From Cystobasidiomycetes sp. EMM_F5 (taxonomy: Eukaryota): DNA of 64,000 bases. Shown piece after piece: positions 16,801 to 37,035 of this stretch. The translations under genes were made by a program, and so were the position numbers. The stretch lies in contig JBPGPT010000041.1 in the NCBI GenBank assembly GCA_051047955.1, positions 1 to 64,000 on the forward strand. Reading direction: 5' to 3'. Position 1 is the first letter of the stretch. Each line of letters starts with the position of its first letter. Under the pieces are notes generated by a model. That model made no database searches, was not told the DNA's origin, and was given only the letters and a program-made list of their open reading frames with translations.

Positions 16801-17478
16801 TTCGCCGACTGGTACACGTGATGAGGGGTGCTGGTTGCGAGCAGGTAGAGTAGACCCGTCAGTGCGCTTGTTGCACTTGCAGACGGACTGGTCGCTTCGC
16901 CTGGATATCGTGCCTGTTTGGATGCGGAGTTGCCGGGGACGCTCTTGAGCGAGAGAATGTCAGTCGTCGATGCGGTAGACGTTCCCTCGAGCTTGTTGAG
17001 AGCATAGCTCGACTCTCCGACGACAAGTGCCTGGAAGGGTAGTCCATTCGTAGCCGATCAGTCGTTTAAATGCGACGTGTAAATGGGTGGGGTCGGAATG
17101 TGAGTAGGTACAGTCAGACTGCGCATACCCACAAATATACACCGTCACAGAATACAAACTCACACTCGGAGTGAGCCCCCTGCCCGATTCAAGCAGGTCG
17201 AGCTGGAGTGCCGCTTGTTTGCCGGGAGGAGGAGCACTGTACGCTGCTCTGAGCTGACCGAGTGCAGCCTCAGACAGGCGCATGTAGATTGGGGGAGGGG
17301 TCTTGTTGGGGTTCCCCTCTGCCAGTCTTGCTGGGATGCTGAGATTACTGACATTGCCGCAATTGTTCGAGTTGCCGTTTGCCAGGCGGGGCGTTGAAGA
17401 CGACGACGACGAGGAGGAGGATATTGCAGCACCCAGTCCTGGCGCTGGGGCTACTCTGAATGATCCTGGGGGGAGCAT
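13810..17478 (-). CDS. Large low-complexity nuclear protein, possibly ELL/occludin-domain elongation factor-like
   Basis: ORFs 16960-17478, 16470-16817 and 13810-16440 join through GT-AG introns. The C-terminal helical segment IRSDTDFEYYSGRYIDELHPTYDELF...ELSMVRRALERY resembles Occludin_ELL (inference). Confidence 0.5.
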
Positions 17479-17770
17479 GGTTGGCTTGAAATGCTATCGA
17501 CTATCGGGTATTGGATATCTTGCAATTGACTGCGATGAGTGTCGACGTCGATGTGATATAATGTGATGTCCTGCTCGCACTCTGGTCGTCCACTGCCAAC
17601 CCTTGCACCATCCCAGAGTCACTATCAACAGCCCGCTCGCCATGCATGAATGTCCTGCATGAATTGTGTGAATGGCAAGGCGGGTCGCAATATAGAAGTA
17701 CACAAATCATTGACATTGTTATTGACATTGATATTGGGTTAATAGTCGCAACGACATGGTTATATCTCCC

Positions 17771-19134
17771 TCACACCTCACCCATCACTTCATTCAGAAT
17801 CTGACTGACGCGAACTGCGGGGAAGGTGGAGTAAACCAACAGTCAGCAACGATAGACGTAGACGATAAGAACTACCCACGAGCCATCTCGCGCACACTCT
17901 CCCTCTCTCGCTCGTCCACAACTCTGGCCAGATACCTCTCAAACCGGTCTGGATGGTAGGCCAGAACCGCCGTCCGAACTGCCAGTCTTCGCTTCTTGCG
18001 ATACACATCCTCTCCATCCTTCCCCATTGAAAGATGCGCAACCAGGAAATCCAACACACTCGCCTTTGACAGTTCCCCACCAGCTTGCTTCGACACAGGC
18101 CATGGGAAATCGTGCATTCTCAGGTTCCCACCCTTGGCATCCGTCAAGCGAGACCAGGCATTCTGATACTCTTCTCGCGTCTTGACGAGCCCTTGCTGCG
18201 TTTTCCGCTTGGCTCGCTCTTCAAGCTGGCGGATACGTTCTTCTTCCAGTGCCCTCGTCCGCGCAATGTTTTCAGCGTGCCGTTTCGCCTTTTCTTTGCG
18301 CAGCTTCTCAAGCTCCTCCTGTCGTGCAAGCTCTTCACGCCGAGTACGCCGAAACATGCCGCGTCGGATGTGTTCTGCATATCTGCATGAAACTGCTCTA
18401 TTAGCACGTTGTACAAGTACAATATAACTACATCGAACGCACTCTTCGTCCGTCATGGCTTCCTTGAAGATGACTCTGTTGATGATTGCTCCAGTGACTG
18501 GATCGACATACCTATCATCATACACGCCCGTCGTTCCAAAACGTCTTTGATCTGGCATGTCCCGCTCGCGATAGTCAAAGCAGAGTCCGGCATTACTCGC
18601 TGCCGTAGAATATGGATCAAACCCTTCGTCATCGCGCATTGCCGAAAAGAGCTTTTCGCGAAACTGATGTTCGTCGTGTTGAGTGTCGTAATCTGTGTGT
18701 CGTTTGTGCGAGGAGGACGGCGGGAGACGGGATTCGTCGTCGTCGTCATTGTACGAGTACGGAACGTAGGGTCGGTCTTTACTCGGTCGCGGAGGGACGT
18801 AGGCATCGGAATCGGCGTCTTCGTCGCCATCCTGACCAGTCGTACGTCGTAAGGATGGCTCCGGGGATGGTTCAAAGTACCTCGAAGGACCAGGTTTGGA
18901 TTGATGGCTGCGTTTTGCTCGGCGTTGTTCTCGTTGTTCTCGCTTCAAGCGTCTAGCTCGTCGACGCTCCTCGTCCACATCACTTTCACCGTCCGAGGAA
19001 TAGCGACGTCGTCTTTGTCGTCTCTCACCCTCGCCGTCTCCCGTTCCTCGACGCCGGTCACTCTCAGTTTGCTTCATCCGAAGCTTGCCAGCTCTTTTGG
19101 CAGCGGCATCGACGACATCAGCGCTGCCTGCCAT
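17771..19134 (-). CDS. NFKBIL1-like protein (Arg/Glu-rich, C-terminal FPWP...HPDRF domain)
   Basis: MAGSADVV...EAMTDEE|YAEHIRRGMF...FPWPV...AVLAYHPDRFE...EMALRVSQILNEVMGEV*. Confidence 0.65.
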
Positions 19135-19274
19135 AGTAGCATTATGGAGGCATCGTTCAATTAAAATCAAGTATCCAAGTTGCGAGTTGCGAGTTGAAGC
19201 AAAGTCAACGTTGAATAGCCGTTTGCGACTTGGTTTAGAGTCAATCAGACGATAATTCGAATATACAAGCAGCC

Positions 19275-20698
19275 ATGGCAGACAAGTGAGTGCAACCATA
19301 CGACGTATACGATGCAAGGTGTCCCTGCTCACATTGTCCGCTCCTTTCTTTCGCAGAAAACAGCGACTCGTCTACTCGGTCCTCGAGTTTCTCCAGGCTT
19401 CAATGTCGGACGGTAGCATAAAGGACGACGACAAGGAGAGTATGGAGGTTGCCAGTGAGTGCGGTGGAGATTGTGTCTGAACTGCCGGTTTGGACGGCTG
19501 ATTGGGTTGCGCGTCGCTCTATTCCATAACACACCTACGTGTTCCTGCCTCCCCGTCGCCCAACTAATCGCATAATCATATCCCAGTCCAGTGCATCGGC
19601 GAGGCTTTCTCCATCGACTTGGACAATGAAGCGCAAAAGTCTCAGCTGTCCGTCAAGCCCGCGACCCTCACACAGATATTTGATGTGTACCTCAAGACTG
19701 AAGCGAAGCGGACGTCTACTGGGTCATCATCCTCCACTCCCACGTCTGCTGCAAATACTTCTGCATCATCATCAAAGACACCAAAGCCGTCCTCTTCCTC
19801 TGCTCCCTCCGCAGCCGATAAAGCAGCAGCGGAAAAGCTCAAGGGCGAAGGCAACTCGCTCATGTCACACAAGAATTATGCAGCTGCCATCGAAAAATAC
19901 ACGCAGGCTATCGCCAAAGACGGCGTGAATCCAGTCTACTACTCCAACAGAGCAGCTGCACATTCCCAAGCGGGAGACCACCAGAAAGCAATCGACGATG
20001 CAAACCAGGCAAAGGAGATTGATCCAAACTTTGCAAAGGCTTATTCCAGACTGGGACACGCATACTTTTCTCTAGCGAGGTATAGCGAAGCGGTAGAGGC
20101 GTACGAGAAGGGTGTCGAACTAGATCCCAGCGTGAGCCGTCTTGCTTCACAAGCATTCTGTTCCAAGTACAAACGGCTGACGTATGGGTCTCCTTTCTCA
20201 ACAGAACGCCTCTATGAAAGGCTCGCTCAATACCGCTAAAGCCAAGCTAACAGAGGATGGTGATGAGGATGCCGATGACACCATTGCATCCACGGGTCCA
20301 TCCCAGTCCGCCCGCGGCGGTGGAGGAGGTAATCCTTTCGCTGGACTTGCTGGGCTTGGCGGAGGAGGAGGAGGCATGCCGGACCTTTCGTCCATTCTCA
20401 ACAACCCGCAGATGATGCAAATGGCTCAATCCATGATGGCGTGCGTGGTCATTCAGCCATTTCAATCTAAATAATACTGATGTGATTGTTCAGAAATGGA
20501 GGCATGGAACGCATGATGAACAATCCAGCTATCCGCAGCATGGCAGAACGGTTCTCGTCTGGAGGTGGAATGCCAAACATGGCAGACATGATGAATGATC
20601 CTTCCATTCGTCAGATGGCAGAGCAATTCGGTGGAGCAGGTCGAGGTGCCGGCAGAGGTCAGGGAGGCAGTGGCAATAATAGCGATATGTATTCGTAG
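19275..20698 (+). CDS. SGT2: Small glutamine-rich TPR co-chaperone Sgt2
   Basis: N-terminal dimerisation domain (KQRLVYSVLEFL...ESMEVAIQCIGEAF), TPR repeats (AEKLKGEGN...VYYSNRAAAH...KAYSRLGHA) and a Met/Asn-Pro-rich STI1-like tail. Confidence 0.95.
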
Positions 20699-20850
20699 AT
20701 CGTCTGATGCGATTGCATCCTGTTATTCTTTTGCAAATAAACACAGCGTTTTTCACCGATACATATGATAGATGTAATGAATGTGAGATTTATTGTCTAC
20801 TGATAGTGTACCATACGCTAACACCTTTTGGGTGCCACCAGCTTCAAAGC

Positions 20851-21647
20851 TTAAGCTGAGGTAGCATTGGCAGCCGTAGTGGCATTCATGACCATTGTGT
20901 AGTTTTGAGACGCCAGGAAGTAGTTTCCAGCAATAGGTTGACCGGCGGCAGCAACGGTAGAAGTCAAGCTAAAGTTTGCACGGAGCGTGTTGTTGGTCGC
21001 AACGCTAGTGTACACAGCCGGTACGGAGTAGTTGGCAGGTTGACGGAACAGGAAGAAGGCATAGTTGTGCGGCAAAGAATCGGTAGCGGGTGGTGCTGGA
21101 CCTTGGTATGGCGCAGGTCCGATGGATGAACCAGCGGCTGGTGCCAAGCTGCCATTGGCAGACATGGTCAGGTTGGTCTGCCACCAGCTGTAAAGAGGTA
21201 AGCGTTAACAAGCGTGACTTGCCACTCGCGTCTTTGCAGCTCACTGGAGTCGTGTTCCACGGCCATTCAGACCCATAGCGACACTCGAGGCAGTAGCATT
21301 GGCCCCGATGCTGGTCAATGGCAGACTCAGGTCAATCATGTACAATTGGTACAAGTTGGCGGCTGTCGCATTGGTCGAATTTGCTGCAGTCGCGTTAGCA
21401 GCTGTATAAGCTACCAGAGGCTGAGATGCAACGCCTGCACGCAATGAAAGCATAAGCTTCGCTCGAGGCTGATTGTTTAATATTTATTCTTACTTGAAGG
21501 TGGGAAGCGCATGCCAGGCATCACGCTTGTGCTATTGTACGTAACGCGCAGCGTAGCATTGGCCATTGGCATAAAGCCAGCAGGTGACTGAGCGACCGTG
21601 CTGACAACAGCGGCCGAAAGAGCGGCCAGAGTAGCAATGAACTTCAT
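20851..21647 (-). CDS. Secreted phosphatidylethanolamine-binding protein (PEBP family)
   Basis: Signal peptide MKFIATLAALSAAVVSTVAQSP, YQLYMIDL and PYQGPAPPATDSLPHNYAFFLFRQP (PEBP motif); many N-glycosylation sequons. Confidence 0.8.
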
Positions 21648-21982
21648 CTTGACTTGTTTGTGACTGGCAGTGATTGTAGGCTTATGGAGACCGGGTATAC
21701 TTTGCGGTAAGCGGCGAAGAAGCTCGGTCTTGGAAAGCAGCTGATGGGAGGGGAGGAAAGGCAAAAGCTCCAGCAGACTTGACCAGAACGGATCTTCACG
21801 TTTCTGATTGGGAAAGCCTTGGCACCGCCTGCAGCTCCATTATGAATTTGTATTAATCTTCCCGCGTTTCCCGCAGTTGCCCGTTTCGAACTTTCTCATT
21901 TGCGAAACGTCACTGGTGCCTAGGCCGAAGCCGCAGCCGAAGCCGATGTGGCAAAACCTGGCTGCATAGAAGAAAAACGATG

Positions 21983-25112
<3,130 letters not shown>

Positions 25113-25389
25113 GATACGCGTTGTTGCGCATGGTACGCACAGGCAAAAGCCATTTTTTGAGTATGCGCGCGGCCCGCAGGAAAGGCAAAAGATTTGCAGA
25201 GTCTTTGCGCTCCAAATGGTATTGTGCGGCATGCCCTGTCACGATCGGTGTTGCAGTGGATCTTCGTTCAGTCGGATTTCAAACGCACCTATGGCAACGC
25301 CTGCATTCAAAACTCAACTTCAATCTCTCGACCGATCTTCACACGGCGACAAATGAGATTGACACCCGCTCTCCCGCCAGACTGCATTG

Positions 25390-26021
25390 CTCCGCGCATC
25401 ATGCTGCCTGCTTAACGCATACTTGTATTATCCGTCCAAAATCTGAGCATGCGAAAGATAGGCGTCGTTTCCGGCTGACTCCCATATCGACTAATAACAC
25501 AATTGCGGCATTCCATCTGCTTGCTGGTCTATATTTCACTGGGTCTGCCTGACCGCCCTGGTAGACGGATCATTTTTGATTTTACAGACGAACTTCTGCG
25601 GAGAAATCAATGCGAACTACGCTGTGTCAGACTGGGCCCCTACACGAACAAGAGTGTATAAGATGCGCAAAGCCTATCATATCCACAGATCCTGAATCCT
25701 TCACCTCTCGAACAGTCCAGAGTACTTCTTGCCTGTCAGATCTCCCCAATCTCCGAAAGAACAACGGAGAGACGCCCAAGAAGACTCAGCAGAATTACAT
25801 AATGAGCAGCGCGAGCGTTGTCATCACATTCTGAGGATACTTGGACCGTGAATAGCCTGCCTCGTGCGTGCTCCGGCTGTCAAGACGGCATTGCATCACC
25901 TGAAGGCCGCCTCGTACCTTCTATGAAGGACTGCCGCAAATATCATACAGAGCAATGTGAGCGAGTTCTCCGCGGAAAATTGATACTTTGGCCGTGAGTA
26001 GCTTGCTTCGTGCTTGCTCCG
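25390..26021 (+). repeat. ~630-bp duplicated segment, copy A (upstream flank, exon 1 and start of intron 1 of the split tRNA-Ser)
   Basis: Aligns by eye, with scattered substitutions and small indels, to the reverse complement of 31942-32568. Confidence 0.9.
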
Positions 26022-26233
26022 TCCTTTCATCAGTGAAGCTCGGAGTTTGTCAAAGAAGTTTCCTGAGACGTGATTCCGACTCCAGGAGTGGTTAAGGCGT
26101 ACGCCTGCTATTCGTAGCAAGTTCAGTGTATTCCCTCTGGGAGCGAGAGTTCGAAGTAAGCTTCAAAATCCTGTTCGAGCCTGTCTGGATCCGCAAACCT
26201 TACAAATTGCCCATCACAGCCTCTCAGGTGTCA
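25982..26233 (+). tRNA. tRNA-Ser(GCT) interrupted by two spliceosomal-type GT-AG introns (25994-26085, 26156-26219) and one canonical 14-nt tRNA intron (26111-26124)
   Basis: Joining 25982-25993, 26086-26110, 26125-26155 and 26220-26233 gives the 82-nt GATACTTTGGCCGAGTGGTTAAGGCGTACGCCTGCTAAGTGTATTCCCTCTGGGAGCGAGAGTTCGAACCTCTCAGGTGTCA. Acceptor GATACTT/AGGTGTC, D arm GCC/GGC, anticodon stem TACGC/GTGTA, variable arm TCCC/GGGA, T arm GAGAG-TTCGAAC-CTCTC. Confidence 0.88.
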
Positions 26234-26243
26234 CAAACCAAAC

Positions 26244-26268
26244 TTTTTGACGATCTTTGACCCTTTTT
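26244..26268 (+). terminator. Candidate Pol III oligo-T terminators
   Basis: TTTTT at 26244-26248 (10 nt after the tRNA 3' end) and at 26264-26268. Confidence 0.55.
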
Positions 26269-27174
26269 ACCCGCTGGAGCGTTCAAACCCCCAAGCTGTA
26301 CAAATTTTGGGAATATTGCCGGAATTCTCTCGTTTATGAAAAAAAAAAACCCGGGTCATTGTTTAGTACCGCTTTTTCCACCGTGCGGCGTGGTCAGTGT
26401 TGACATACAAAACGACGTCAATAATGCATCCTGTCCATTTCGCTTGAGGTGAGCGGACGACGCAAATTTTTACAACACCCAATTTCCTGCAGGATGAGTC
26501 AATCAAGTCTTAGATGCCTGTGTAGGATAGCACACCATTCATAGGTAAAGACCAGGCACATTGGCAACCCCACAAAGCACCTCAATAACTGTAACGACCG
26601 CGTGGAGGTACGCCCTATTTTACCAGCATATTTGCCTGCCTCTGAAGTTTGCAAGCCTCAATGTCTAGAAGTGAATGGCAGCTGAACTCTGCGAGACCAA
26701 GAGCGGATACCGATACATGGCCTTCTTACAGGCTCTCTGATGTGAATCCCTTGAAAAGAACGGCTTTTCGCGCATGGAGCCTTTAATGGGTCTTCCATTT
26801 AAAAGAGGGATTCCGCTGCACGTATCGCACATAAAAATCGTCAAATTGTTAGCTGTGATGACTATCATATCAGGATCAGCTTCTGCTACGTATGAATGTC
26901 ATCGGCTAGCTGTTGCGTCAGTACAAGGGAATTTCCCGGGATTTATCAGTGCATCATACGTATGCCTGGGAAAGCAGTAGGAAATTTTAGCATATACTCA
27001 GTGCTCAGCCGTTTATTTAATTCGTCATAGCACGAGTAGTCTGGAGCCCGAGTATTCAAACTATAGCAGAAGCAACACTTCAGCTGCCTGTGATTTGATC
27101 AGTGACGGTCGTACACGTGCTTCGTTCAGAAGCCATTCGCAGCGCAACCTTCTTTCTTCAGCACCATAGCAAGC

Positions 27175-28284
27175 ATGTCCACCGACATGGATCCTGTTCT
27201 CGTTGCCAAAGGCAAAGTGCGAGACATCTACAGTACTTCAGACCCGGAGACGCTGCTCTTCGTGGCTAGCGACCGTGTTTCAGCGTTTGACATAATCATG
27301 AAGAATGTGGGCAACAATGGCCGCTCCTTCAGCCGGAGGGAATCTGATTTCAATGCACAGAGCGTACCCAACAAGGGAAAATTGCTGACATCGCTCAGCA
27401 AGTTCTGGTTCGATAAACTCGGTCACATTCTGCAAAATCACTTTATTACGTCCGACTTGGACAAGATGCCGGAGGGTACGAAGCAATGGGGGTTGAGAAA
27501 CAATAAAGACTTGGAAGGACGGACTATGCTAGTCCGCAAGTGTCAGGTCTTGAAATGCGAAGCCATAGTCAGAGGCTATCTTACTGGCAAGTCCTGACAT
27601 TTTGCATTACATCAGGCGCTTACCCTCGCTACTCGATACTATAGGCTCTGCATATAAGGAATATTTACAAAAAGGCAGCGTTCACGGCATCAAATTACCG
27701 CCAGGCTTGAAGGAGTCTGTTAAGCTAGATCCTCCAATATTTACGCCCTCAACCAAGGCAGATGTTGGCGACAAGGATGAGAACGTCCATCCTGATAGGT
27801 GTACATAAAGTCTTTCTATCCGCCTCGTGAACTTATCGCTTACAAGCCTTACTTGACAGTACCGGAATTGCTGGGTCCAGAATACCAAGACTTAGCATTG
27901 TTGTTGGTACAAAAGGCAATTGAGCTATTCTCGACAGGTGCCAAGCACGCAGAGAAAGCTGGCCTCATCCTTGCCGACACAAAATTTGAGTTTGGCGTCC
28001 TTCCTGCCAGTCACTCTGGTCGATTGGAAGACCGCCTTATTCTGATAGACGAGGTGTTGACTCCAGACTCGTCACGGTATTGGGAGGCAAGCGAATGGGC
28101 AGAGGGGAAGACAATGACTGGGCTCGACAAGCAGGCTCTTCGTGAATGGCTGAAAGCAGGTGGCGGTGGGTTTGGAAAAGAAGGCAAAGACAAGGCAGTG
28201 GAGATACCTCAGGATGTGGTAGGGGAGATTTGGCGGAGATATGTAGAGTGCTACGAGCGCATCACAGGCGACAAGTTCACATAG
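27175..28284 (+). CDS. ADE1: SAICAR synthetase (phosphoribosylaminoimidazole-succinocarboxamide synthase)
   Basis: [64 protein letters not shown] and DKQALR. Confidence 0.97.
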
Positions 28285-28373
28285 CTGCGCCCAATCGATA
28301 AATATACTTTGATGCATGGTTGCGATTTGAACGATACCTTGATGTTTCGTTAACGATCTGAGCCCGAGTCACT

Positions 28374-30517
28374 ATGATGAGTCCAGCCAGCTCTGGCTAC
28401 CTATATCCTGGCTGACTTGTACTGTTGGATTGCTGCACGGCAAAGGAACCGACAAGGTAGTTATTCCGGCGCAGCCGTACGGTGCGATGCGATGCGCTGA
28501 CCATTCATTATCCCAGCTATACGTGACTGTGACCGAACATGCACTCGGCTCGCACACGGCCAATCTATCAGGCGCCAAAGGCAAGAAGTCGGCATCATCG
28601 TTTCAAAGGGTTCGTCGAAAGCAGAGGTGGTTCAGATCAAGCTGAGCCTTTTAGCAGCTGCCATTCGACTGCTGCGCGCTGTCTCTGCGCCCATTCGAAG
28701 ACCTCCCAGTATGCACAAGGGATGGGACCGTTTATGACCTTACGAATGTACGTTGTTGTTGGATTTACGGCCACGATGCCGAGAGTATACTAACAACACT
28801 TTGCCGGTCGGTTCTTATGTCTGCAGATTATGCCGTGGATCCGCAAACATGGTACTGATCCCGTAACTGGCAAGAAGCTGGCCTCTGGGGACCTCATCAA
28901 GCTAAACTTTTTCAAGAATGCCCAAGATAACTACTACGACCCCGTTTCATACAAAGTCTTCAACGAGCATACAGCCATAGTGGCCATCACGACTAGCGGT
29001 AATGTCTTCAGCAAGGATACCGTGGACAGCTTGAACATCAAGCCTGGAGTATGGCGCGACTTAGTCGATGATACAGAATTCGGGCGAAAAGACATCATAA
29101 TACTGCAGGTATGTAGGGCAAGTGGGATTGTCTGAGAGAAGCTGTACTGAAACCGCAAGTAGGACCCTCACAATCTGGAGAAGCGAGATTTATCCCAGTT
29201 TGATTACATCAAGAAAGACCTGAAAGGCGACGTGGATGAAGCTACGAAGGATCCGCTCAACAACGTCAATCTGGCTGCCATGGGCGGTGCCAGCAAAGTT
29301 TTGACTCAAATGCAACAGAAGAAAGCGAACGCGGCGGTGAGTCAGCATTAGCGGAACGCGATACGCGACTAAATATCGGTACCGCTAGCAGCCAACGAAA
29401 GCAGAGACGACCGATCCCCAAAGAGCAAATGTTGTCGACGTGAAGAAGGAAGCTCGAGCAAACAGTGCTCAGACTCCGTACAACGCCGCAGCCTTCTCGA
29501 CAGGCAAGGCTTCCGCATCGTTGACTAGTACAAGCGCAGATTTGTCAACGAAAAGCGACAGAGCGCTCATCGACGAGGAAGAGTGGATGTTTGAGCGGAT
29601 ATTGCCTGGCGAAAAAGGTTACGTGGCGATAAAGACCAATTTCGGCACCCTAAATCTTGAGCTCTTCTGCGACAAGGTCAGCACAATGCCCATCAATACA
29701 TGCAAGGCTGACAATAGCACTCTCTAAGGCGCCAAAGACTTGTTATAACTTCTTGATGCTATCTAGGCAAGGAAAATACGATAACACGCCGTTTCATCGG
29801 CATATTCCAGGCTTCATGATTCAAGGCGGTGATCCAACTGGGACAGGAAGCGGTGGGGAGTCATATTGGGGCTCCGACTTCCGCGACGAACATTCTCTGC
29901 GTAATGCGTACAAGCATGATGCGCGAGGCCTGCTTAGCATGGCAAACCGAGGCGCAAATACCAACTCGTCGCAGTTCTTCTTCACATTCCGACCTGTGCC
30001 GCATTTGAACGGGAAGCATACTGTATTCGGAAAGATCGTTGGCGGTGAAGATGTCTTGACCAAAATCGAAGCTGTGCCACCCAATCCAGCTACGGATCGC
30101 CCGACAAAGGCTATCAAGATCATGGACGTGTCCATATACAAAGATCCATTCGAGGAGTTTAAGACGAAGTTGCAAAAGCGCTTGCTGCGAGAGCAGGAAG
30201 GTAGAGATTCTGCAGGCGCCAAAGCCTTGGCGAAAGAAGAAAGAGACAAGGATCGTACAACGTAAGCACCTGCGTCTATCTTAATTAGAATATTCATCTG
30301 ACTTCTAAGACATAGTTGGTTTGGCACACAATTGGGCGAGAAAGGTTCTTCAGGCAAGCGCCAACTAGACGCTGGAGGCGTTGGCAAATACATGAATGCC
30401 GGCGATGTGCAAAGCCCTGCTGCAACTTCCTTAATTGACGAGTACTCAGCAGAGACGGGGCCGACGAAAAAAGTCAAGCGACAAGGTGGCGGGTTTGGCA
30501 GTTTTGAAGGGTGGTAG
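28374..30517 (+). CDS. PPIL2: Peptidyl-prolyl cis-trans isomerase-like 2 (U-box plus cyclophilin)
   Basis: M|GKGTDK|LYVT, CALSLRPFEDLP, PWIRKHGTDPVTG, TNFGTLNLEL, FHRHIPGFMIQGGDPTGTGSGGES, LSMANRGANTNSSQFF, HTVFGK; ends FGSFEGW*. Confidence 0.95.
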
Positions 30518-30740
30518 GATAAGCAGACAAGATGTGTAAGGTCAGAGTTATAACAGATCACTGAGTTGTTGTTGTATTATAGTAGCCTAGGTTGCATCTG
30601 CCATCGAGCGCCTGTGCCAACATAATTGTTATCAAAGAATGTGTAATTGTCGAACTAGGATGATTAACAACCCTTTCCAATACGATCCACCAACCGTGCT
30701 GTATCCGTGTTGTGATACACATCGCCCCTTGCAGCTACCA

Positions 30741-31621
30741 TTAGTGCATAGCAGGACGAATGGCTGTCTTGGCGAGTTGTAATCTCAAGCGAAGCCGTTG
30801 ACGATCGTCTTCAATTTTCAATAACTCATGGCTACCCGAATCTGTATCTCTGAGGCCAGGAGGATGCGCAGCGCAAAAGGCAGAGAAGTCCTCGCTGGCT
30901 TTCCTATATGCCAAGTTGAGCTTCTCATGCTGGTTTCGCATCAGCTTGGGGTTGTAAGGAGAGTCTACGAATGAAACATGTAAGCTAAACGTATCAGGTG
31001 GATCACAATAGTTGATGGGGGGCTTACGGCTATATCTAACATCAAGCGACGAGCCTTGTGGGTCTTGTAATCAGCCAGCGTTAGATGCTGTTACGGCAGC
31101 TGAACTCACTGCTGGAGTGCTGTTTGCGGATGCTAGACCCGATGCTGCTCGTCGAGCGTGCTGGCGACAGTGGCGATGAAGGAAAGGGCAGTGAAGCAGT
31201 AGACGATGAACAAGGAGACATGGCGGGAGGTGACAAGAACAGCTCCTCTTCAGCTTCCTCTGTTGGCGTATCATCTGCGGTTCAGATTCAACACGAGATC
31301 TCGGTGTAATTGAAGAATGTTTTCAATAATGACTATTACGCACCCGGATCAATTGTGTCTGTTTTTGAAAAAGACGGCAGAGTGCCACCGAATGAGAGAG
31401 ACGGCATGTGAAAGGATCCGAAGAGGGATGTGCCAAGACTACTACCGAAAAGCGTCTCTGACATGCCTGTTCAGTCCAGAAACCCGAATGTCAGCAATGT
31501 AAAGATATACATACAAGCTGTACGACATACCGCGTCGGTGCTGAGCGGGCGATGGTCCGACGGGTAAGACAGGATCGCACTGCTGCATGGCAGCATCAAA
31601 GCTTGCATTTGAGGACTGCAT
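30741..31621 (-). CDS. Hypothetical Ser/Pro-rich protein of ~210 aa, 5 exons
   Basis: In-phase GT-AG assembly: MQSSNASFDAAMQQ...|GMSETLFGSS...|DDTPTEEAEEELFLSPP...|NPQGSSLDVRYS|HSPYNPKLMRNQHEKL...IRPAMH*. Confidence 0.55.
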
Positions 31622-31941
31622 ACTAGACGAAGATCGTAGAGGGTGTTGTAAGTATCGTGTTCCAGGGCAGGAGGGTTATTGTCGCGCGGCAGAAGCAGAA
31701 GCAGGACAGGAACCACGGTCTCGGATGTTGCAGACAAGACGCAGAGGGAGTGTGATATGGACAGCTGTCAAATGGCCACGGCGATAGATCAGGGCCTGTT
31801 CGACATTTTTGCTGAATGAGTGCACTGCAAGCTCATATGACCCGCTCACAATGGTCCGCCGGCCGGCATCCGCTGTACTGGCATGCGAAGTGAAATCTGG
31901 TGCGAAGACAGTGCGATGACTGCTCGTGCTGCTCGTGTTGC

Positions 31942-32568
31942 CGGAGCAAGCACGAAGCAAGCTACTCGCAAACAAAGTATCGATTTTCCGCGGAGAACGA
32001 GCTCACATCGCTCTCTATGTTATTTCCGGCAGTCATCCATAGAAGATACGAGGCGGCCTTCAGGTGATGCAATGCCGTCTTGACAGCCGGAGCACGCACG
32101 AGGCAGGCTATTCACGGTCAAAGTATCCCCAGAATGTGATGAAAACGCTCGCGCTACCCATTATGTAATTCTGCTGAGTCTTCTTGGGCGTCTCTCCGTT
32201 GTTCTTTCGGAGATTTGGGGAGATCTGACAGGTAAGATACTCTGGACTGTTCGAGAGGTGAAGGAGTTAAGATCTGCGGATATGATAGGCTTTGCACATC
32301 TTATACACTCTTGTTTGTGTGGGGCCCAGTCTGACACAGCGTAGTTCGCATTGATTTCTCCGCAGAAGTTCGTCTGTAAAATCAAAAATGATCCGTCTAC
32401 CAGGGCGGTCAGGCAGACCCAGTGTAACATAGACCAGCAAGCAGATGGAATACCGGAATTGGTTGATTAGTCGAAATGGGAGTCAGCCAACAACCACGCC
32501 TGTTCACATGCTCAGGTTTTGGACGGATAATACAAGTATGCGTTGAGCAGGCAGCATGGTGCGCGGAG
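31942..32568 (-). repeat. ~630-bp duplicated segment, inverted copy B (contains a degenerate tRNA exon 1)
   Basis: Reverse complement of 25390-26021. It reads GATACTTTGTTT|GCGAGT where copy A has GATACTTTGGCC|GTGAGT, and no downstream tRNA exons are seen. Confidence 0.9.
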
Positions 32569-32798
32569 GAGTGTGACTTCAGACAAGTAAGGGTGTTAAT
32601 AGTGACTGCAGAATTGTTACGACAGCCTTTTCGATACGATAATCAGCTTGAACGAAATGGGAAGCTGACGGCGACCGCTTGAGACCCTTCGCATTTCGAA
32701 TCTCAGCCAGCATCTTGACCTGCTTGGCCATTTACAGGCAACTCCACGCTCTGCTTCCTGCTGCTGAAGCTGCGACGGCTTGTCGAACCTTTGAAGTG

Positions 32799-33731
32799 AT
32801 GCTCACATCCATGCTGCTCAAGACGTTGGCTGCTGTTCTGGTATTGGGCGCCGTCGAATCGCTCGCTGCCGAGCTGAGAGGCTCATTGGCTGCCAACGAG
32901 GCAATATCTCGTGAGTCTCAGCCTGTTTTACTCTGAGTTTGCGTTGGATTGAGCAATGTCGGCTGCAGATGCGTTCTTACCGCTGGCTCCGGATTCTGCT
33001 GTTGTATTGAACGGAGGTACATCTGGAAGCGCATTGATAACGATAAACGGGACATTCCGTCTGTAAGGTTGCGGCGGCTGATTCAGGTTGGCGACGCTGA
33101 TCTTAACTTTGATGCGCCAGACGAGATGTTGCCCCCGGAGACTACGTCTTGACCGTGCTCGACAGAGACTACACCTTTCCCACAGTAAGAGACACTGAAA
33201 CATATGCGGTATCGTCAACTAACGCACATTGCAGCTCGCTGTGCACATACCCACAGCCGAGGCAAATGGGGAACCAGAAATGCGGCCTCACACGATGGGC
33301 CGACGACCAACCGACAAATCGCTCATTCAGACTTTGCCGTATCCTCTCGTATTACGACCTCTCAACAAGAAGCAATATTACGAAGAGGCTCGGGTATTCA
33401 GCCCCATCGACATGCTAAAGCAGAACAAGATGATTCTGATGATGGTAGCAGCCGCAGTCTTCGCCTTCGGCATGCCGAAACTGCTAGTCAGTCCGGTTAT
33501 CTTTGCTGCGTTCCGGCACTGATTCTAAATCATCGTTGTCAGGCTATGATTGACCCGGAAGCTTTGAAAGAAGTCCAGGCGAATCAAGCCGAAATGCACA
33601 AGAATCTGCAAAATGTCCAAAATCTAGAGTTTTCTGGCGGATCGCTGGGCAAGTTACTGGCAGGCAGTACTGAGAAGGCCTCAGCACCTACATCGCCGGG
33701 AGGGCCTCAACGCAGACGGAAAGCAGCATGA
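32799..33731 (+). CDS. EMC7: ER membrane protein complex subunit 7
   Basis: Signal peptide, DUF2012-like beta region (YVLTVLDRDYTFP), LPYPLVLRPLNKKQYYEEAR...MLKQNKMILMMV TM segment, MIDPEALKE. Confidence 0.75.
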
Positions 33732-33825
33732 GCAGTGTTGGAGCATCGCAGGGGCGCTTTATACAGCAAGATATGCTAGCCACTCGCGTTCAGATGTAAG
33801 GTTGCAGCAATCTCTAGCGATTCCT

Positions 33826-34283
33826 TTATGCTGACGACAGGGCCTCGTAGTGCGAGTCGTACGTTTCTCCAACTTTCTCGGCACCGCTCACGATCACGAA
33901 GACAGCAGCTTCGGCCTGTTCGTCCTCTTTGTCATCCTGTGGCAGAGATGTGTATTCATCAAGGACGATCGACCTGTGACGGAATCTGTTGATGCGGTCC
34001 ACGGCACTGTCCACGATCGATAGACATATTGCCAAACATACGTGGCCTAGCAGCGAGAGAATGGTGCTGTAGGAGCATATTAAGGTAAGCTATGCATGAG
34101 TGAGACTGGGCGGAACCTAACGACGTACGCCCATATGGCCAGGACTGCAAAGCGGAACCAGAGTGGAGACTCGGTGGCTACATCAACCACGCTAGCCGCC
34201 GAAGAGGCTTGAGATGCAGCTGAAGCAACGGCATGGACTATAGCAGCTGTTGTGCCATGGCAGTGATGATGGACCGGTGCCAT
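33826..34283 (-). CDS. Small hypothetical membrane protein
   Basis: MAPVHHHCHG...PLWFRFAVLAIWA|ILSLLGHVCLAICLSIVDS...YEALSSA*; one GT-AG intron. Confidence 0.5.
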
Positions 34284-34531
34284 AGTCGAAGGTCTTGATA
34301 AATCAGCAATACTGCAGCGAATCGTGCGAAGTTGTCTGGCAAGCAACAGCCGAGCGTCAGGCAGTCTCTCTCTCTATATATTTCCCTTTGCCGGCATATC
34401 GGATCACAGCCGTGCGCAGATCGTAAAAAAGGAAATTGCCAAAGCGATCTATCCTTTTTGCGACTTGGCTACAGGCCGGCTGTCTGCCAAATTGCGGGAA
34501 TATCTAATAAGGAAGTTAAGACTAACTTCGT

Positions 34532-37035
34532 TCAGACATATCTATCTATTATCTGGGATACGATGTCCGGCTTCCGCAGATTATTGCTGACTTTGTCAAT
34601 TTCGTCATATCGAAAGGGTTGATCTGACATGAAGGACAATGTAGCCATTGAATTTGCACAAGATTGGTGTACAGAGTCGGATGTATTGGTGTCCAGCGGA
34701 TCGTGCCGAAAAGCGGTGTTCGCGACAGGCCCACTTTGAGAGATGTGCTTCAGGGATGGTGCTCTGACAAGCTTTGCCGAAGCGCGATTGACAGATGTCG
34801 CTCGCGTAATCTTGGTATAGCGGAGACTCGCATTGTCAGAAGGTTCGATATGCACGTTGCCTTGACTATGGGTGTAATAGTCATCTCCGCTGGCTGCATT
34901 TAGAAACCTGCAACAAGTATCGTCAGTATAGTCGTACATATATGCACGACATATCGTCATACGATGTGACATCGAAGCCCCTGCCAACTTGATGGACCAC
35001 GTCACTCCCGTTTGGTGTGCTTTGACTTTGCCAACTGTCTGTAGGGTGATACAATGCCGGCGGTCGTGGTAGTTGTAATGCAAGCGAGCATGCCTCCTCT
35101 GCGTCCTCGCCTTGTTTGCACTGTCCTGATGCTCGAATGGGAGGCTTCGGAAAGAATGACAGCGAAAGAGCACTCAACACCGACGAGCCACGTGCAGTAT
35201 CAATTGGATTCGATGATTGAATACTAAGCCCGCGAAGATTCCGCAGAGCATCTGTTGCCTTGGTTTCTACGCCTACGGGCGTAGTCATGCAGAACCCGGA
35301 CGGGTGACAGGGAAGATCCTCTTCAGGACTTGGCAGGACTATCGAGACTAGACGCGGTACAGCCTTTCTCGAGATCTTTCGAGTCAACTCTGGTGCCTGT
35401 ACGTGCTTCAAGTTGTTCAGGTCAGGCGTGGTCTGCATTGGCTTCGTTATAAGGTTTTGTTTCTCTTTTGTGACAGGCGGATGTATCAAGGCCTTTTCCA
35501 CATCTCCTTGTCCGCGTTCATCAGGCGGACTTGTATCCATATCCAGGTATGAAACGTCCTTTGGAACCGACTCTTCTTCAGGCAGAAGCCAGGACGGCAC
35601 ATTGCTCCCATGACGAATGACTGGGCCAACAGTAAGACTTTCTCGATGCGGTAGACGCACAGAAAGTGTTGAGACTGGCGAAGTTGCCGGAAGTTGTAGC
35701 GTACCATCTAATGGCCCTCTGTTCTGACCCGTCACGCCTATGTAAGCTGATTTGGGGGGTAGGCCCGGCGGCTCCGATGTTCTGCCGAAGAATGTGTCTG
35801 ACTTGTCGAATACAAGCGGTGCAGATCGCGGATACGACGGCGTTCCCCGATACGTGAAGCATAGTAAATCTACCAAAAATATGTACGATACGATCGCGTT
35901 CAGTAAAGCAGCGAACGGAGTCATGGGAAATGCATGAATGACGAAACCTGTGACGCGGATACTGGTTGCTAGGAGAAGTCCAAATATCAATGGACCCTCG
36001 AAAAGAAGGGTGGAACAATTGTGTATGTAGGCGATTTTCAATCCAACAATGGCCAGCATTGTTAACTGGTCGACGACTGTTTAGCTTCTGCTGCAGTGAA
36101 CACAGAGGGGTGCGACTCTCACTAGAGTGATGAATTGCAGAGCATTGTCTGCTAGAAAAAGGCGTTTGAAAACAGTAGCTTGGACGGTGAACATGTCACG
36201 CCACGCTGCACCCAAGGCGACCGCTGCTGCCTAAGTTTCGCATCAGCGCCGTGTCGATCAGTTTAGACCTTGATGCAGATAATTTACATAAGAGAGCCAG
36301 ATGTACGCCCTGCGATATTGATGTGTCACAGTTGCACTAAGTATGGCGTCAGAAGGTGAGATGCAGAAGCATACCGGAAAATTGGGCGACCTTGCAGACC
36401 CAGTGCCCAGCTGTTCCATAGCCAGTGACTATTGACTTCTGCTAATCGTTCCAAGGATCTACATTGACCACTCTATGTCGAACTTTCAGCTAAGCCTTCC
36501 GTCTAGACATTGCCAACTCTTACCCTTGATACGCGCATGTTTGCGTATAGAAGCTGGCCAGCAATTGACAGAGAAGCCAGAATCTCAGACAAGACGGCTT
36601 CGAATCTACAGTCGAGATCAGCAATTTGAAAAAAGGACATTGACGCAGACGGCAGCGCTTGATCGTGCCTACCGATGTCCGTTGCTCTCGGCCACGACTG
36701 TGACACCTTCTTGAGAAACCAGCCTGATCAGATCGAAGAAGCCGGAGGCGAAAGCCAGACCAGCTGACATTGTGAGAACGGCACCGTCTCTGGCGAATCT
36801 ACATTATTACCATTTACAGGAGATTAACAAAGCTAGCTAACCTGGAGCTGTCACATGTCGCAGAATCAGCTGGCAGCAGCACACCATGGGAGTACACTAC
36901 TCACAACTTGGAAGTCGCCAGTAGCAACATCGCGGACGCCATGCCCAGTACCCCGATACTGATTCCAGGTATGACGCTTAGAATAGATTGCACTTCGGCC
37001 GCACTCGACCAGACCAGCGCTGATGGCCATGCCAT
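34532..37035 (-). CDS. Hypothetical multi-TM protein with a disordered C-terminus (multi-exon)
   Basis: Hydrophobic exons (ILSVIPGISIGVLGMASAMLLL; LAIVGLKIAY...LIFGLLLA...LLNAIVSYIFLVDLL) followed by Pro/Ser-rich ORFs 34923-36059 and 34532-34900. Ends are approximate. Confidence 0.55.

What the first reader, a model, noticed from the sequence alone, without database searches (positions are those of the whole stretch)
26156..26289. Replacement B boxes and T-run pattern suggest the split tRNA is still a Pol III gene
Seen: both native internal promoter boxes are broken at the DNA level. Intron 2 carries GTTCGAGCC (26173-26181) and a second GTTCAAACC lies downstream (26281-26289); both fit the B-box core GTTCRANNC. 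Neither spliceosomal intron has a run of 4 or more T, while T5 runs follow the tRNA immediately. Established: S. pombe U6 uses an intron-located B box and S. cerevisiae SNR6 a downstream one. Inference: the promoter has been rewired so that a Pol III transcript is spliced by the spliceosome.
Basis: partly seen in the sequence, partly recalled or inferred. Interest (0 to 1): 0.72.

Follow-up and report, generated by a model that had tools for sequence, protein, structure and literature searches.

The report
Split tRNA gene with duplicated promoter boxes
A serine tRNA gene of a basidiomycete yeast is cut by two ordinary mRNA-type introns, and the two promoter-like motifs are decayed copies of the gene's own T-loop; one sits inside an intron, where it could still recruit RNA polymerase III.

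Summary
GTTCGAGCC (26173-26181) and GTTCAAACC (26281-26289) exist. Both native boxes are split. No T4 run lies in the introns, and two T5 runs follow the tRNA.

What is new is what the motifs are. The last 47 nt of intron 2 (26173-26219) are a diverged copy of the gene's own T-loop, acceptor strand and trailer. 26270-26304 is a second decayed copy of an uninterrupted variable arm, T arm and acceptor. So both motifs are B boxes by descent, left by partial local duplications, not chance matches.

Removing 25994-26085 and 26156-26219 gives an ARAGORN-valid tRNA-Ser(GCU) with a canonical 14-nt intron. This was 2 hits among 19,748 GT..AG pairs, against 0 of 94,906 control pairs. A metagenome contig (L039) holds a tRNA-Leu(UAG) with an mRNA-type intron at the same D-loop site, an intact B box and a T7 terminator.

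Whether Pol III still transcribes the gene through the intronic box is plausible but unproven. The T5 terminators and the U6 precedents in the same fungal class favour it. No RNA data or orthologues were reachable. The "no T-run in introns" argument is not significant.

An earlier scan note (e1-4091646) reported an mRNA-type intron in an algal tRNA-Ala gene on other DNA.

The parts
25836..25875 (+). Decayed upstream duplicate of exon 1 plus the first 28 nt of intron 1. Its 5' splice site reads GTGAAT and its D-stem part is damaged.
   Evidence: the repeat finder family D1: 40 nt, 85% identity, spacing 146.
25982..25993 (+). Exon 1: tRNA positions 1-12 (acceptor 5' strand, U8, G9, the first three D-stem bases). 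This is the 5' half of the A box.
   Evidence: ARAGORN on the in-silico spliced sequence. It is the only 5' exon among 19,748 GT..AG pair removals that gives a tRNA.
25994..26085 (+). Intron 1: 92 nt, GTGAGT...CAG, spliceosomal type, inserted in the D loop between positions 12 and 13. An alternative 3' site lies at 26088.
   Evidence: No run of 4 or more T. No significant similarity to the tRNA's 5' half (530 of 1000 shuffles reach the score).
26086..26155 (+). Exon 2: tRNA positions 13-59. It contains the canonical intron and ends with GTTCGAA, the contiguous remainder of the native B box.
26111..26124 (+). Canonical 14-nt tRNA intron between positions 37 and 38 (tRNA-endonuclease type).
   Evidence: ARAGORN reports i(38,14).
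26156..26219 (+). [quoted passage not shown] A CTTAC branch-like site lies 17-21 nt before the 3' end.
   Evidence: CTTAC-type elements also lie near the 3' ends of the likely introns of the neighbouring SAICAR-synthetase gene.
26173..26219 (+). Relic alpha: a diverged copy of the gene's own T-loop, T-stem 3' strand, acceptor 3' strand and 25 nt of trailer. It begins with the intronic B-box-like GTTCGAGCC (26173-26181). Its last 40 nt form an adjacent tandem repeat with 26220-26259.
   Evidence: 30 of 47 ungapped matches. 18 of the 31 positions after the motif match (binomial 1.5e-4). Only 10 of 127,938 window 31-mers do as well. Local alignment is reached by 2 of 1000 shuffles.
26220..26233 (+). 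Exon 3: tRNA positions 60-73 (C60, T-stem 3' strand, acceptor 3' strand, discriminator A73).
26244..26268 (+). Two T5 runs (26244-26248 and 26264-26268), Pol III terminator-like. The first lies 10 nt after A73.
   Evidence: The window has 34 T5+ runs on the + strand.
26270..26304 (+). Relic gamma: a decayed copy of an uninterrupted variable arm, T arm and acceptor strand. It contains the downstream B-box-like GTTCAAACC (26281-26289).
   Evidence: 29 matches in 41 alignment columns; 1 of 1000 shuffles reach the score, 2 of 2000.
25390..26021 (+). Block duplicated in inverted orientation at 32568-31942 (92% identity). It holds the 3' end of the upstream gene, the spacer, exon 1 and 28 nt of intron 1. 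In the other copy the exon-1/5' splice-site junction GGCCGT reads GTTTGC.
   Evidence: blastn and alignment.

Best explanation
The locus is a nuclear tRNA-Ser(GCU) gene of a cystobasidiomycete yeast. It now needs three splicing events: two spliceosomal GT..AG introns (in the D loop and the T loop) and the usual 37/38 intron.

The two 'replacement B boxes' are not new inventions or chance matches. They are the T-loops of two partial duplicates of the gene's own 3' part. One duplicate (26173-26219) makes up three quarters of intron 2. The other (26270-26304) decays downstream of the terminator.

Shown:
- the split gene, in silico;
- the paralogy of both relics to the gene's 3' part;
- the double T5 terminator.

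Inferred:
- Pol III still transcribes the gene.
- TFIIIC is anchored on the intronic T-loop copy. That copy matches the spliced T-loop at every specified B-box position and lies 17 nt beyond the truncated native box.
- Transcription starts upstream of exon 1 and stops at the T5 run, giving a precursor of about 262 nt.
- The spliceosome then removes both introns, as it does for U6 precursors in fission yeast, before the tRNA endonuclease, RNase P and RNase Z finish the job.
- The downstream copy is probably an inert relic or at most an auxiliary TFIIIC site.
For: Split gene:
- ARAGORN finds tRNA-Ser(gct), 83 nt plus a 14-nt 37/38 intron, only after both intervals are removed. It finds nothing in the raw window.
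- 2 of 19,748 GT..AG pair removals in 25780-26420 give a tRNA. Both use the same introns, with one alternative 3' site. 0 of 94,906 pairs with five control dinucleotide boundaries do.
- 0 of 59,739 single GT..AG removals over the whole window give a tRNA.
- The 5' sites GTGAGT and GTAAGC and the CAG 3' sites are as in neighbouring gene introns.

Relics:
- Relic alpha: 30 of 47 matches, 18 of 31 after the motif, P 1.5e-4, 10 of 127,938 window 31-mers as good; 2 of 1000 shuffles.
- Relic gamma: 1 of 1000 shuffles.
- All seven specified B-box positions survive in both relics, while the rest of alpha is 22 of 38 identical. By my arithmetic that is about 0.02 per relic if neutral, but with ascertainment bias.

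Pol III:
- T5 at +10 and +30, and no T4 in the 262-nt precursor.
- Independent case L039: a tRNA-Leu(tag) with a 55-nt GTAAGC..ACTAAC..TAG intron at the same D-loop site, an intact GGTTCGAATCC, no T4 in its 159-nt precursor and T7 8 nt after A73. It was 1 of 116 loci and 1 of 1806 joins.
- Up to four spliceosomal introns occur in one fungal U6 gene (review passage); that this gene is R. hasegawae's is recalled. Reference titles in the same review place U2, U1 and U5 introns in Rhodotorula hasegawae. That species is Erythrobasidium hasegawianum, class Cystobasidiomycetes. This is the class of the window's nearest named relative (95% identical protein).
- TFIIIC binds stably through the B box, and its A-box module binds mainly the DNA backbone (PMC11724288, passages).
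Against: - There is no expression, polymerase or TFIIIC data of any kind.
- No orthologous locus could be fetched, so motif conservation across species is untested.
- The distance from the exon-1 half of the A box to the intronic box is about 184 bp. Natural yeast tRNA genes have 31-93 bp.
- A TFIIIC complex with normal spacing from the intronic box would place initiation inside intron 1 and miss exon 1.
- Against the 11-nt consensus the motifs are only 8 of 11, like 197 other + strand sites.
- Survival of the motif in both relics is partly an ascertainment effect, because they were found through the motif.
- Absence of T4 in the introns is not significant.
- The discriminator is A73, whereas tRNA-Ser usually has G73 (recalled, not tested). 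The acceptor stem has two G-U pairs.
- The spliced product could not be scored with the Rfam tRNA model.
- Other copies of tRNA-Ser(GCU) may exist in the genome, so this one could be dispensable.
Confidence: 0.45

Rival explanations
1. The split tRNA is functional but is made from a Pol II transcript (its own, or read-through from the upstream gene). The spliceosome acts co-transcriptionally as on any mRNA, and RNase P/Z then release the tRNA. The B-box-like motifs and T5 runs are inert leftovers of the ancestral Pol III gene and its duplicates.
For: - Both motifs are explained by descent alone, so no function is needed.
- Splice signals are ordinary.
- Both boxes are broken, and the A-to-B spacing is abnormal for a tRNA gene.
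- A 632-nt block running from the upstream gene's 3' end into intron 1 was duplicated as one piece.
- A Pol II-made tRNA exists elsewhere: tRNA-Sec in Trypanosoma brucei (PMC2943599, title and start of the abstract in a search listing only).
Against: - Two T5 runs sit within 35 nt right after A73, while the copy of that trailer inside intron 2 has lost its T run.
- The 262-nt precursor is free of T4.
- L039 has the same kind of intron with an intact B box and a T7 terminator.
- U6 shows that Pol III transcripts can be spliced.
Confidence: 0.2
2. Pol III transcribes the gene, but the two relic boxes do nothing. Initiation relies on an upstream element and TFIIIB, as proposed for red algal tRNA genes with interrupted boxes, or on the truncated native box GTTCGAA.
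For: [quoted passage not shown]
- An AT-rich AAATATCA lies 35-42 nt upstream of exon 1.
- 7 of the 9 native core positions remain contiguous.
Against: - Fungi have TFIIIC, and their U6 genes depend on B blocks.
- The native remnant lacks C61.
- The upstream element is weak and was not tested.
- All specified positions are kept in the intronic copy, against 58% identity elsewhere in it.
Confidence: 0.15
3. The locus is a decaying, duplication-riddled tRNA pseudogene. It is no longer expressed or needed, because other tRNA-Ser(GCU) genes do the work.
For: - At least four local duplications have hit the locus: D1, alpha, gamma and the inverted 632-nt block.
- The discriminator is the unusual A73, and the acceptor stem has two G-U pairs.
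- Neither ARAGORN nor Rfam detects anything in the raw DNA.
Against: - After in-silico splicing every checked cloverleaf invariant is in place: U8, A14, G18 G19, U33, A37, G53 T54 T55 C56, A58, C61.
- Both boundaries are consensus GT..AG, with 0 of 94,906 control pairs giving a tRNA.
- Intron 2 contains trailer-derived sequence, so it arose in the DNA. Its splice sites therefore had to evolve or be kept in place, which implies selection for splicing.
- In the non-functional inverted copy the exon-1/5' splice-site junction is destroyed, while this copy keeps it.
Confidence: 0.15
4. The two motifs are chance matches to a loose 9-nt pattern.
For: The pattern is not enriched in the window as a whole: 16 hits against 17.85 expected. 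Each motif has 3 mismatches to the 11-nt consensus.
Against: Each motif is embedded in a 35-47 nt stretch that is significantly similar to the tRNA's own 3' part. Two + strand hits fall within 134 nt.
Confidence: 0.02

Closest known systems
Schizosaccharomyces pombe U6 snRNA gene (Pol III; spliceosomal intron carrying the B block; Tani and Ohshima 1989 and Frendewey et al. 1990, as cited in PMC5855946)
   Same: A gene of Pol III type is interrupted by an mRNA-type intron, with a B-box match inside that intron and an A element and T-run terminator outside it.
   Different: Here the product is a tRNA, not an snRNA. There are two spliceosomal introns plus a canonical tRNA intron. The intronic box is demonstrably a duplicate of the gene's own T-loop. 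Transcription and splicing are not shown here.
Saccharomyces cerevisiae SNR6 (downstream B block, ~200 bp from the A block; PMC5855946, passages read)
   Same: A B-box-like element lies beyond the terminator (26281-26289). The A-to-B distances (about 184 and 292 bp) are far above the tRNA norm.
   Different: The SNR6 downstream box is essential and conserved. Here the downstream motif sits in a decayed gene fragment, and an intronic copy lies closer.
Spliceosomal introns in U6, U2, U1 and U5 snRNA genes of Rhodotorula hasegawae (= Erythrobasidium hasegawianum, Cystobasidiomycetes) and other fungi (Tani and Ohshima 1991; Takahashi 1993, 1996; Canzler 2016; seen only as cited in PMC5855946)
   Same: The fungal class is the same as the window's nearest named relative. 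mRNA-type introns sit in conserved cores of non-coding RNA genes, including a Pol III gene.
   Different: Those introns are ascribed to reverse splicing into RNAs at the spliceosome's active site. tRNA is not a spliceosome component. Intron 2 here carries gene-trailer sequence, which points to a DNA-level local duplication instead.
Non-canonical D-loop and T-loop introns of red algal nuclear tRNA genes (Cyanidioschyzon merolae, PMC3978253; Chondrus crispus D loop 20/21 and T loop 58/59, bioRxiv 10.1101/2021.12.21.473619; passages read)
   Same: Nuclear tRNA genes have introns in the D and T loops as well as the anticodon loop, so the A and B boxes are interrupted. tRNA-finding programs miss these genes or call them pseudogenes.
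   Different: The red algal introns are short bulge-helix-bulge introns cut by the tRNA endonuclease. Here the boundaries are GTGAGT..CAG and GTAAGC..CAG. The bases beside the junctions cannot form the central 4-bp helix of a BHB (read).
Intron creation by tandem genomic duplication (Hellsten et al. 2011, PMC3265369; search listing and start of the abstract only)
   Same: Intron sequence is a paralogue of the adjacent exon and flank. 26180-26219 and 26220-26259 are adjacent 40-nt repeats.
   Different: The present splice sites are not the duplicated AGGT of the classical model. The AGGT in the acceptor strand is TGGA in the intronic copy, and 17 nt of the intron have no identified source.

Membership tests
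Eukaryotic nuclear tRNA gene (type 2 Pol III gene) | Sequence folds into a cloverleaf with the universal invariants and a sensible anticodon. | tested here: met
   Met only after in-silico removal of the two GT..AG intervals: ARAGORN gives tRNA-Ser(gct) with a 14-nt 37/38 intron. The raw DNA gives nothing. No covariance-model score of the spliced form was obtained.
Eukaryotic nuclear tRNA gene (type 2 Pol III gene) | Contiguous internal A box (positions 8-19) and B box (52-62). | tested here: not met
   The A box is split after position 12 and the B box after position 59. The best A-box matches in 25780-26300 have 3 mismatches. A full-core B-box copy lies in intron 2 instead.
Eukaryotic nuclear tRNA gene (type 2 Pol III gene) | Oligo-T terminator shortly after the 3' end, with none inside the transcribed region. 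| tested here: met
   T5 at 26244-26248 and 26264-26268; no T4 in 25982-26243.
Eukaryotic nuclear tRNA gene (type 2 Pol III gene) | Occupied and transcribed by TFIIIC, TFIIIB and Pol III. | not testable with these tools
   No RNA or ChIP data were reachable.
Spliceosomal (U2-type GT-AG) intron | Consensus 5' splice site GTRAGY and 3' YAG at boundaries whose removal restores the product. | tested here: met
   GTGAGT..CAG and GTAAGC..CAG. 2 of 19,748 GT..AG pairs against 0 of 94,906 control pairs give a tRNA.
Spliceosomal (U2-type GT-AG) intron | Branch site at a suitable distance from the 3' splice site; length typical of the genome. | tested here: inconclusive
   Intron 2 has CTTAC 17-21 nt before its end. 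Similar elements appear in likely introns of the neighbouring gene, which are 54-59 nt long (that solution is 1 of 48 open-frame solutions and was not checked by homology). Intron 1 (92 nt) has only weak candidates (CTGAG, CCGAC).
Spliceosomal (U2-type GT-AG) intron | Spliced RNA or lariat observed. | not testable with these tools
   No usable RNA data.
Bulge-helix-bulge (tRNA-endonuclease) intron at a non-canonical position | Two 3-nt bulges separated by a 4-bp helix formed by the start of the intron and the start of the 3' exon. | tested here: not met
   By direct reading, the first bases of either intron are not complementary to the first bases of the following exon. The minimum-free-energy fold of the precursor shows no such motif at either junction.
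Pol III gene with a displaced B box (S. pombe U6 / S. cerevisiae SNR6 type) | B-box match in an intron or downstream of the terminator. | tested here: met
   26173-26181 lies in intron 2 and 26281-26289 lies 47 nt past A73. The intronic motif equals the spliced T-loop at all specified positions.
Pol III gene with a displaced B box (S. pombe U6 / S. cerevisiae SNR6 type) | The displaced box is required for TFIIIC binding and transcription, and is conserved in relatives. | not testable with these tools
   No orthologous locus or functional data. The only comparator, L039, keeps its native B box.
Intron born by tandem duplication | Intron sequence paralogous to the adjacent exon or flank. | tested here: met
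   The 47 nt at 26173-26219 match the T-loop-to-trailer segment.
Intron born by tandem duplication | Splice sites supplied by a duplicated AGGT. | tested here: not met
   The AGGT at 26226-26229 corresponds to TGGA in the intronic copy. The actual 5' site lies in 17 nt of unknown origin.

The most novel reading that the evidence does not exclude
A Pol III-transcribed tRNA precursor must be processed by two different splicing machineries: the spliceosome twice and the tRNA endonuclease once. Its promoter function has moved to a duplicate of its own T-loop that now lives inside one of the introns. In that reading intron 2 was built in place from the gene's own 3' end, and the duplication that broke the B box also supplied the replacement. 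Together with L039, this would make spliceosomal introns a recurrent, overlooked class of tRNA intron in fungi that standard tRNA finders miss.
Probability: 0.3. Interest if true: 0.85.

Novelty: new variant of a known kind. Interest (0 to 1): 0.66.

Why it matters
A 2023 review of eukaryotic tRNA processing places eukaryotic tRNA introns between positions 37 and 38, removed by an endonuclease and a ligase, and contrasts this with the spliceosome (PMC10275265, passages). A 2018 U6 review lists spliceosomal introns in U6, U2, U5, U1 and rRNA genes but not in tRNA genes (PMC5855946). Five full-text searches found no paper describing one.

If this gene is expressed, three things follow:
- Some tRNA genes are invisible to standard finders, which would explain 'missing' isoacceptors in fungal genomes.
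- It gives a second natural system, after U6, in which the spliceosome acts on a Pol III transcript.
- It is a dated, sequence-level example of an intron assembled from a local duplication, together with the promoter element it displaced.

Tried and rejected
- RNA evidence. The look-up of sequencing runs on 25600-26500 listed no RNA holder; it gave only 8 small runs added by species label, with next to none of the words. Laying X1, X4, X7 and X2 on 17000-36000 at 82% likeness placed only about 50 nt at 29812-29863 and nothing on the locus. Neither result says anything about expression.
- Genome and records. No whole genome is held for this window. The record behind L039 is not held, and L039 has no informative ORF, so its organism is unknown.
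- Metagenome scan. 
- Rfam. cmscan of the raw window or locus gives no tRNA. The spliced form could not be given to that tool.
- Intron 1 origin. I suspected that intron 1 also derives from duplicated tRNA 5' sequence. This is not supported: 530 of 1000 shuffles reach the score. 218 of 1000 reach it for the segment that holds the exon-1-like piece near 25893, and 44 of 1000 for the D1 copy.
- Alpha versus gamma. A direct relation between them (repeat family D3) is not significant (196 of 2000 shuffles). Each relic is related to the tRNA's own 3' part, not demonstrably to the other.
- Other repeats. Neither intron has other copies in the window apart from the duplicates described, so they are not introner-like repeats. 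The sequence after the two D1 copies is not similar (1085 of 2000).
- Papers. Canzler 2016 and Frendewey 1990 are not held, so what they show about intronic boxes in Pucciniomycotina could not be read.
- Earlier scan notes. Look-ups by place and by sequence gave nothing. Of three by words, one gave nothing, one only unrelated notes, and one gave one related note on other DNA.
Full report
**Where we are.** The window is eukaryotic. A 499-aa reading frame is 95% identical to a protein of 'Cystobasidiomycetes sp. EMM_F5', and the next hits are Cyphobasidiales and Rhodotorula. These are Pucciniomycotina yeasts.

The finding lies in a 1.5-kb spacer between two + strand genes. Upstream is a glutamine-amidotransferase-domain gene whose last frame ends at 25552. 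Downstream is a SAICAR-synthetase gene that starts near 27175. No genome is held for the window.

**The split tRNA is real in silico.** ARAGORN and Rfam find no tRNA in the raw window. Removing 25994-26085 (92 nt, GTGAGT...CAG) and 26156-26219 (64 nt, GTAAGC...CAG) gives a tRNA-Ser(gct) of 83 nt plus a canonical 14-nt intron at 37/38.

Its features after splicing:
- a 7-bp acceptor stem with two G-U pairs;
- U8, A14, G18 G19, U33 and A37;
- a long variable arm;
- G53 T54 T55 C56, A58 and C61.

The solution is essentially unique:
- Of 19,748 pairs of GT..AG intervals in 25780-26420, 2 give a tRNA. Both use the same introns and differ only in a 3' site 3 nt further on.
- Of 94,906 pairs bounded by five other dinucleotide combinations, none does.
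- Of 59,739 single GT..AG removals over the whole window, none does.

The junction bases cannot form a bulge-helix-bulge motif. The likely introns of the neighbouring gene are 54-59 nt long, with similar ends and CTTAC-type elements. That reading is one of 48 open-frame solutions and was not checked by homology. I therefore take both insertions to be spliceosomal-type introns. They sit between positions 12/13 (D loop, A box) and 59/60 (T loop, B box).

**The observation.**
- GTTCGAGCC lies at 26173-26181 and GTTCAAACC at 26281-26289.
- Both native boxes are interrupted, although GTTCGAA, 7 of the 9 core positions, stays contiguous at 26149-26155.
- There is no T4 in either intron.
- T5 runs lie at 26244-26248 and 26264-26268, the first 10 nt after A73.

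Their statistical weight differs.
- GTTCRANNC is not enriched in the window (16 hits against 17.85 expected). But 2 of the 6 + strand hits fall inside these 134 nt, which would be about 2e-4 if independent (my arithmetic).
- The window's + strand has 34 T5+ runs, so two T5 runs within 35 nt are equally unexpected.
- With 165 T4+ runs on that strand, 156 nt of intron without one is what chance gives two times in three. That part of the argument has no force.

**What the two motifs are.** This is the main result.

The last 47 nt of intron 2 (26173-26219) align without gaps to the gene's own T-loop, T-stem 3' strand, acceptor 3' strand and the first 25 nt of its trailer. That target is 26149-26155 followed by 26220-26259.
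- 30 of 47 positions match.
- In the 31 positions after the 9-nt motif, where the register is fixed by the motif, 18 match (binomial 1.5e-4).
- Only 10 of 127,938 31-mers of the window do as well.
- A local alignment is reached by 2 of 1000 shuffles.
- 26180-26219 and 26220-26259 are thus adjacent 40-nt tandem copies. The boundary between them is the 3' splice junction.

The downstream motif sits in a second relic, 26270-26304. It aligns to an uninterrupted variable arm, T arm and acceptor strand, with 29 matches in 41 columns. One of 1000 shuffles reaches the score, and 2 of 2000.

So both 'replacement B boxes' are T-loops by descent, left by partial local duplications of the gene's 3' part. 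The relic inside the intron includes trailer sequence, which is absent from mature tRNA. Intron 2 was therefore assembled in the DNA at this locus. It was not acquired by reverse splicing of a foreign intron, the route usually proposed for U6 introns (PMC5855946).

The classical duplicated-AGGT model does not fit exactly. The AGGT of the acceptor strand reads TGGA in the copy. The 5' splice site lies in 17 nt whose source I could not find.

**A duplication-prone locus.**
- Exon 1 with the first 28 nt of intron 1 has a decayed copy 146 nt upstream.
- The block 25390-26021 recurs inverted at 32568-31942 with 92% identity. In that copy the exon-1/5' splice-site junction is destroyed.

I could not show that intron 1 derives from tRNA sequence.

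**Does the intronic box work?** The intronic copy differs from the spliced T-loop only at position 52 and at the unspecified position 59, so it is as good a B box as the tRNA's own. All seven specified positions survive in both relics, while the rest of the intronic relic is 22 of 38 identical. Under neutrality that is roughly 0.02 per relic. The relics were noticed through the motif, so this is suggestive only.

For Pol III:
- The double T5 terminator lies right after the gene. The trailer copy inside intron 2 has lost its T run.
- The review passages say that S. pombe U6 has its B block in its intron. They say that S. cerevisiae SNR6 has its B block downstream, about 200 bp from the A block.
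- TFIIIC holds on through the B box, while its A-box module mainly touches the DNA backbone (PMC11724288).
- The yeast known for spliceosomal introns in U6, U2, U1 and U5 genes, Rhodotorula hasegawae, is Erythrobasidium hasegawianum (the U2, U1 and U5 cases from reference titles; its U6 case is recalled). It belongs to the same class as this organism's nearest named relative.

Against Pol III:
- The exon-1 half of the A box is about 184 bp from the intronic box, against 31-93 bp in yeast tRNA genes.
- Normal spacing from the intronic box would start transcription inside intron 1.
- Nothing was measured.

**An independent case.** After 1806 in-silico GT..AG removals, exactly one locus, L039, gave a tRNA.

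L039 is a tRNA-Leu(tag) with these features:
- a 55-nt GTAAGC...ACTAAC...TAG intron at the same D-loop site, between positions 12 and 13;
- a 25-nt canonical intron;
- an intact GGTTCGAATCC;
- no T4 in its 159-nt precursor, although the 867-nt locus has eight T4+ runs;
- T7 8 nt after A73.

Its organism is unknown. It shows that the window's gene is not a one-off. It also shows that such a gene can keep every Pol III feature except a contiguous A box.

**Literature.** Five searches found no paper on spliceosomal introns in tRNA genes.
- A 2023 review places eukaryotic tRNA introns at 37/38 and contrasts their removal with the spliceosome (PMC10275265).
- The U6 review lists such introns for U6, U2, U5, U1 and rRNA genes.
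- Red algae have D-loop and T-loop introns that break the boxes, but of the endonuclease type (PMC3978253; bioRxiv 10.1101/2021.12.21.473619).
I did not check it.

**Verdict.**
- The motifs are true B-box sequences by descent, and the terminator signal is real.
- Continued Pol III transcription through the intronic box is the best reading. I give it 0.45.
- The rivals are a Pol II host transcript (0.2), Pol III without help from the relics (0.15) and a dying pseudogene (0.15).
- RNA and occupancy experiments, or the orthologous loci of other Cystobasidiomycetes, would settle it.

Noticed in passing
L039 637-809 (metagenome contig, 4059 nt): A tRNA-Leu(UAG) gene has a 55-nt GTAAGC..ACTAAC..TAG intron at the same D-loop site (positions 12/13) as intron 1 here. 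It also has a 25-nt canonical intron, an intact B box and a T7 terminator. The organism is unknown. The same insertion site in two different class II tRNAs is unexplained; it could be shared descent, gene conversion or a preferred site.
   Followed up: partly
window 25390-26021 and 31942-32568: A 632-nt inverted duplication at 92% identity carries the 3' end of the upstream gene, the spacer, tRNA exon 1 and 28 nt of intron 1. It ends abruptly inside the intron. In the second copy the exon-1/5' splice-site junction has a cluster of four changes in five consecutive bases.
   Followed up: partly
window 26000-26010 and 26152-26162: An 11-bp complementarity, with one G-U pair, links the 5' part of intron 1 to the exon 2/intron 2 junction, covering the 5' splice site of intron 2. 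It forms in the minimum-free-energy fold of the 252-nt precursor (z -1.97). It could order the two splicing events or be chance. It was not tested.
   Followed up: no
window 26233: The discriminator base is A73. From memory, cytoplasmic tRNA-Ser usually has G73 and A73 is typical of tRNA-Leu. This was not checked against other Pucciniomycotina tRNAs.
   Followed up: no
window 27587-27644: The reading frame of the SAICAR-synthetase gene is best kept open by an intron that starts GCAAGT, a GC-AG intron. This is one of 48 open-frame solutions and was not verified by homology.
   Followed up: partly
window 25893-25925: A stretch resembles the tRNA's acceptor 5' strand, D-stem start and anticodon stem-loop with the D loop missing. 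It looks like a further decayed 5' copy by eye, but the alignment of the segment that holds it is not significant (218 of 1000 shuffles).
   Followed up: yes
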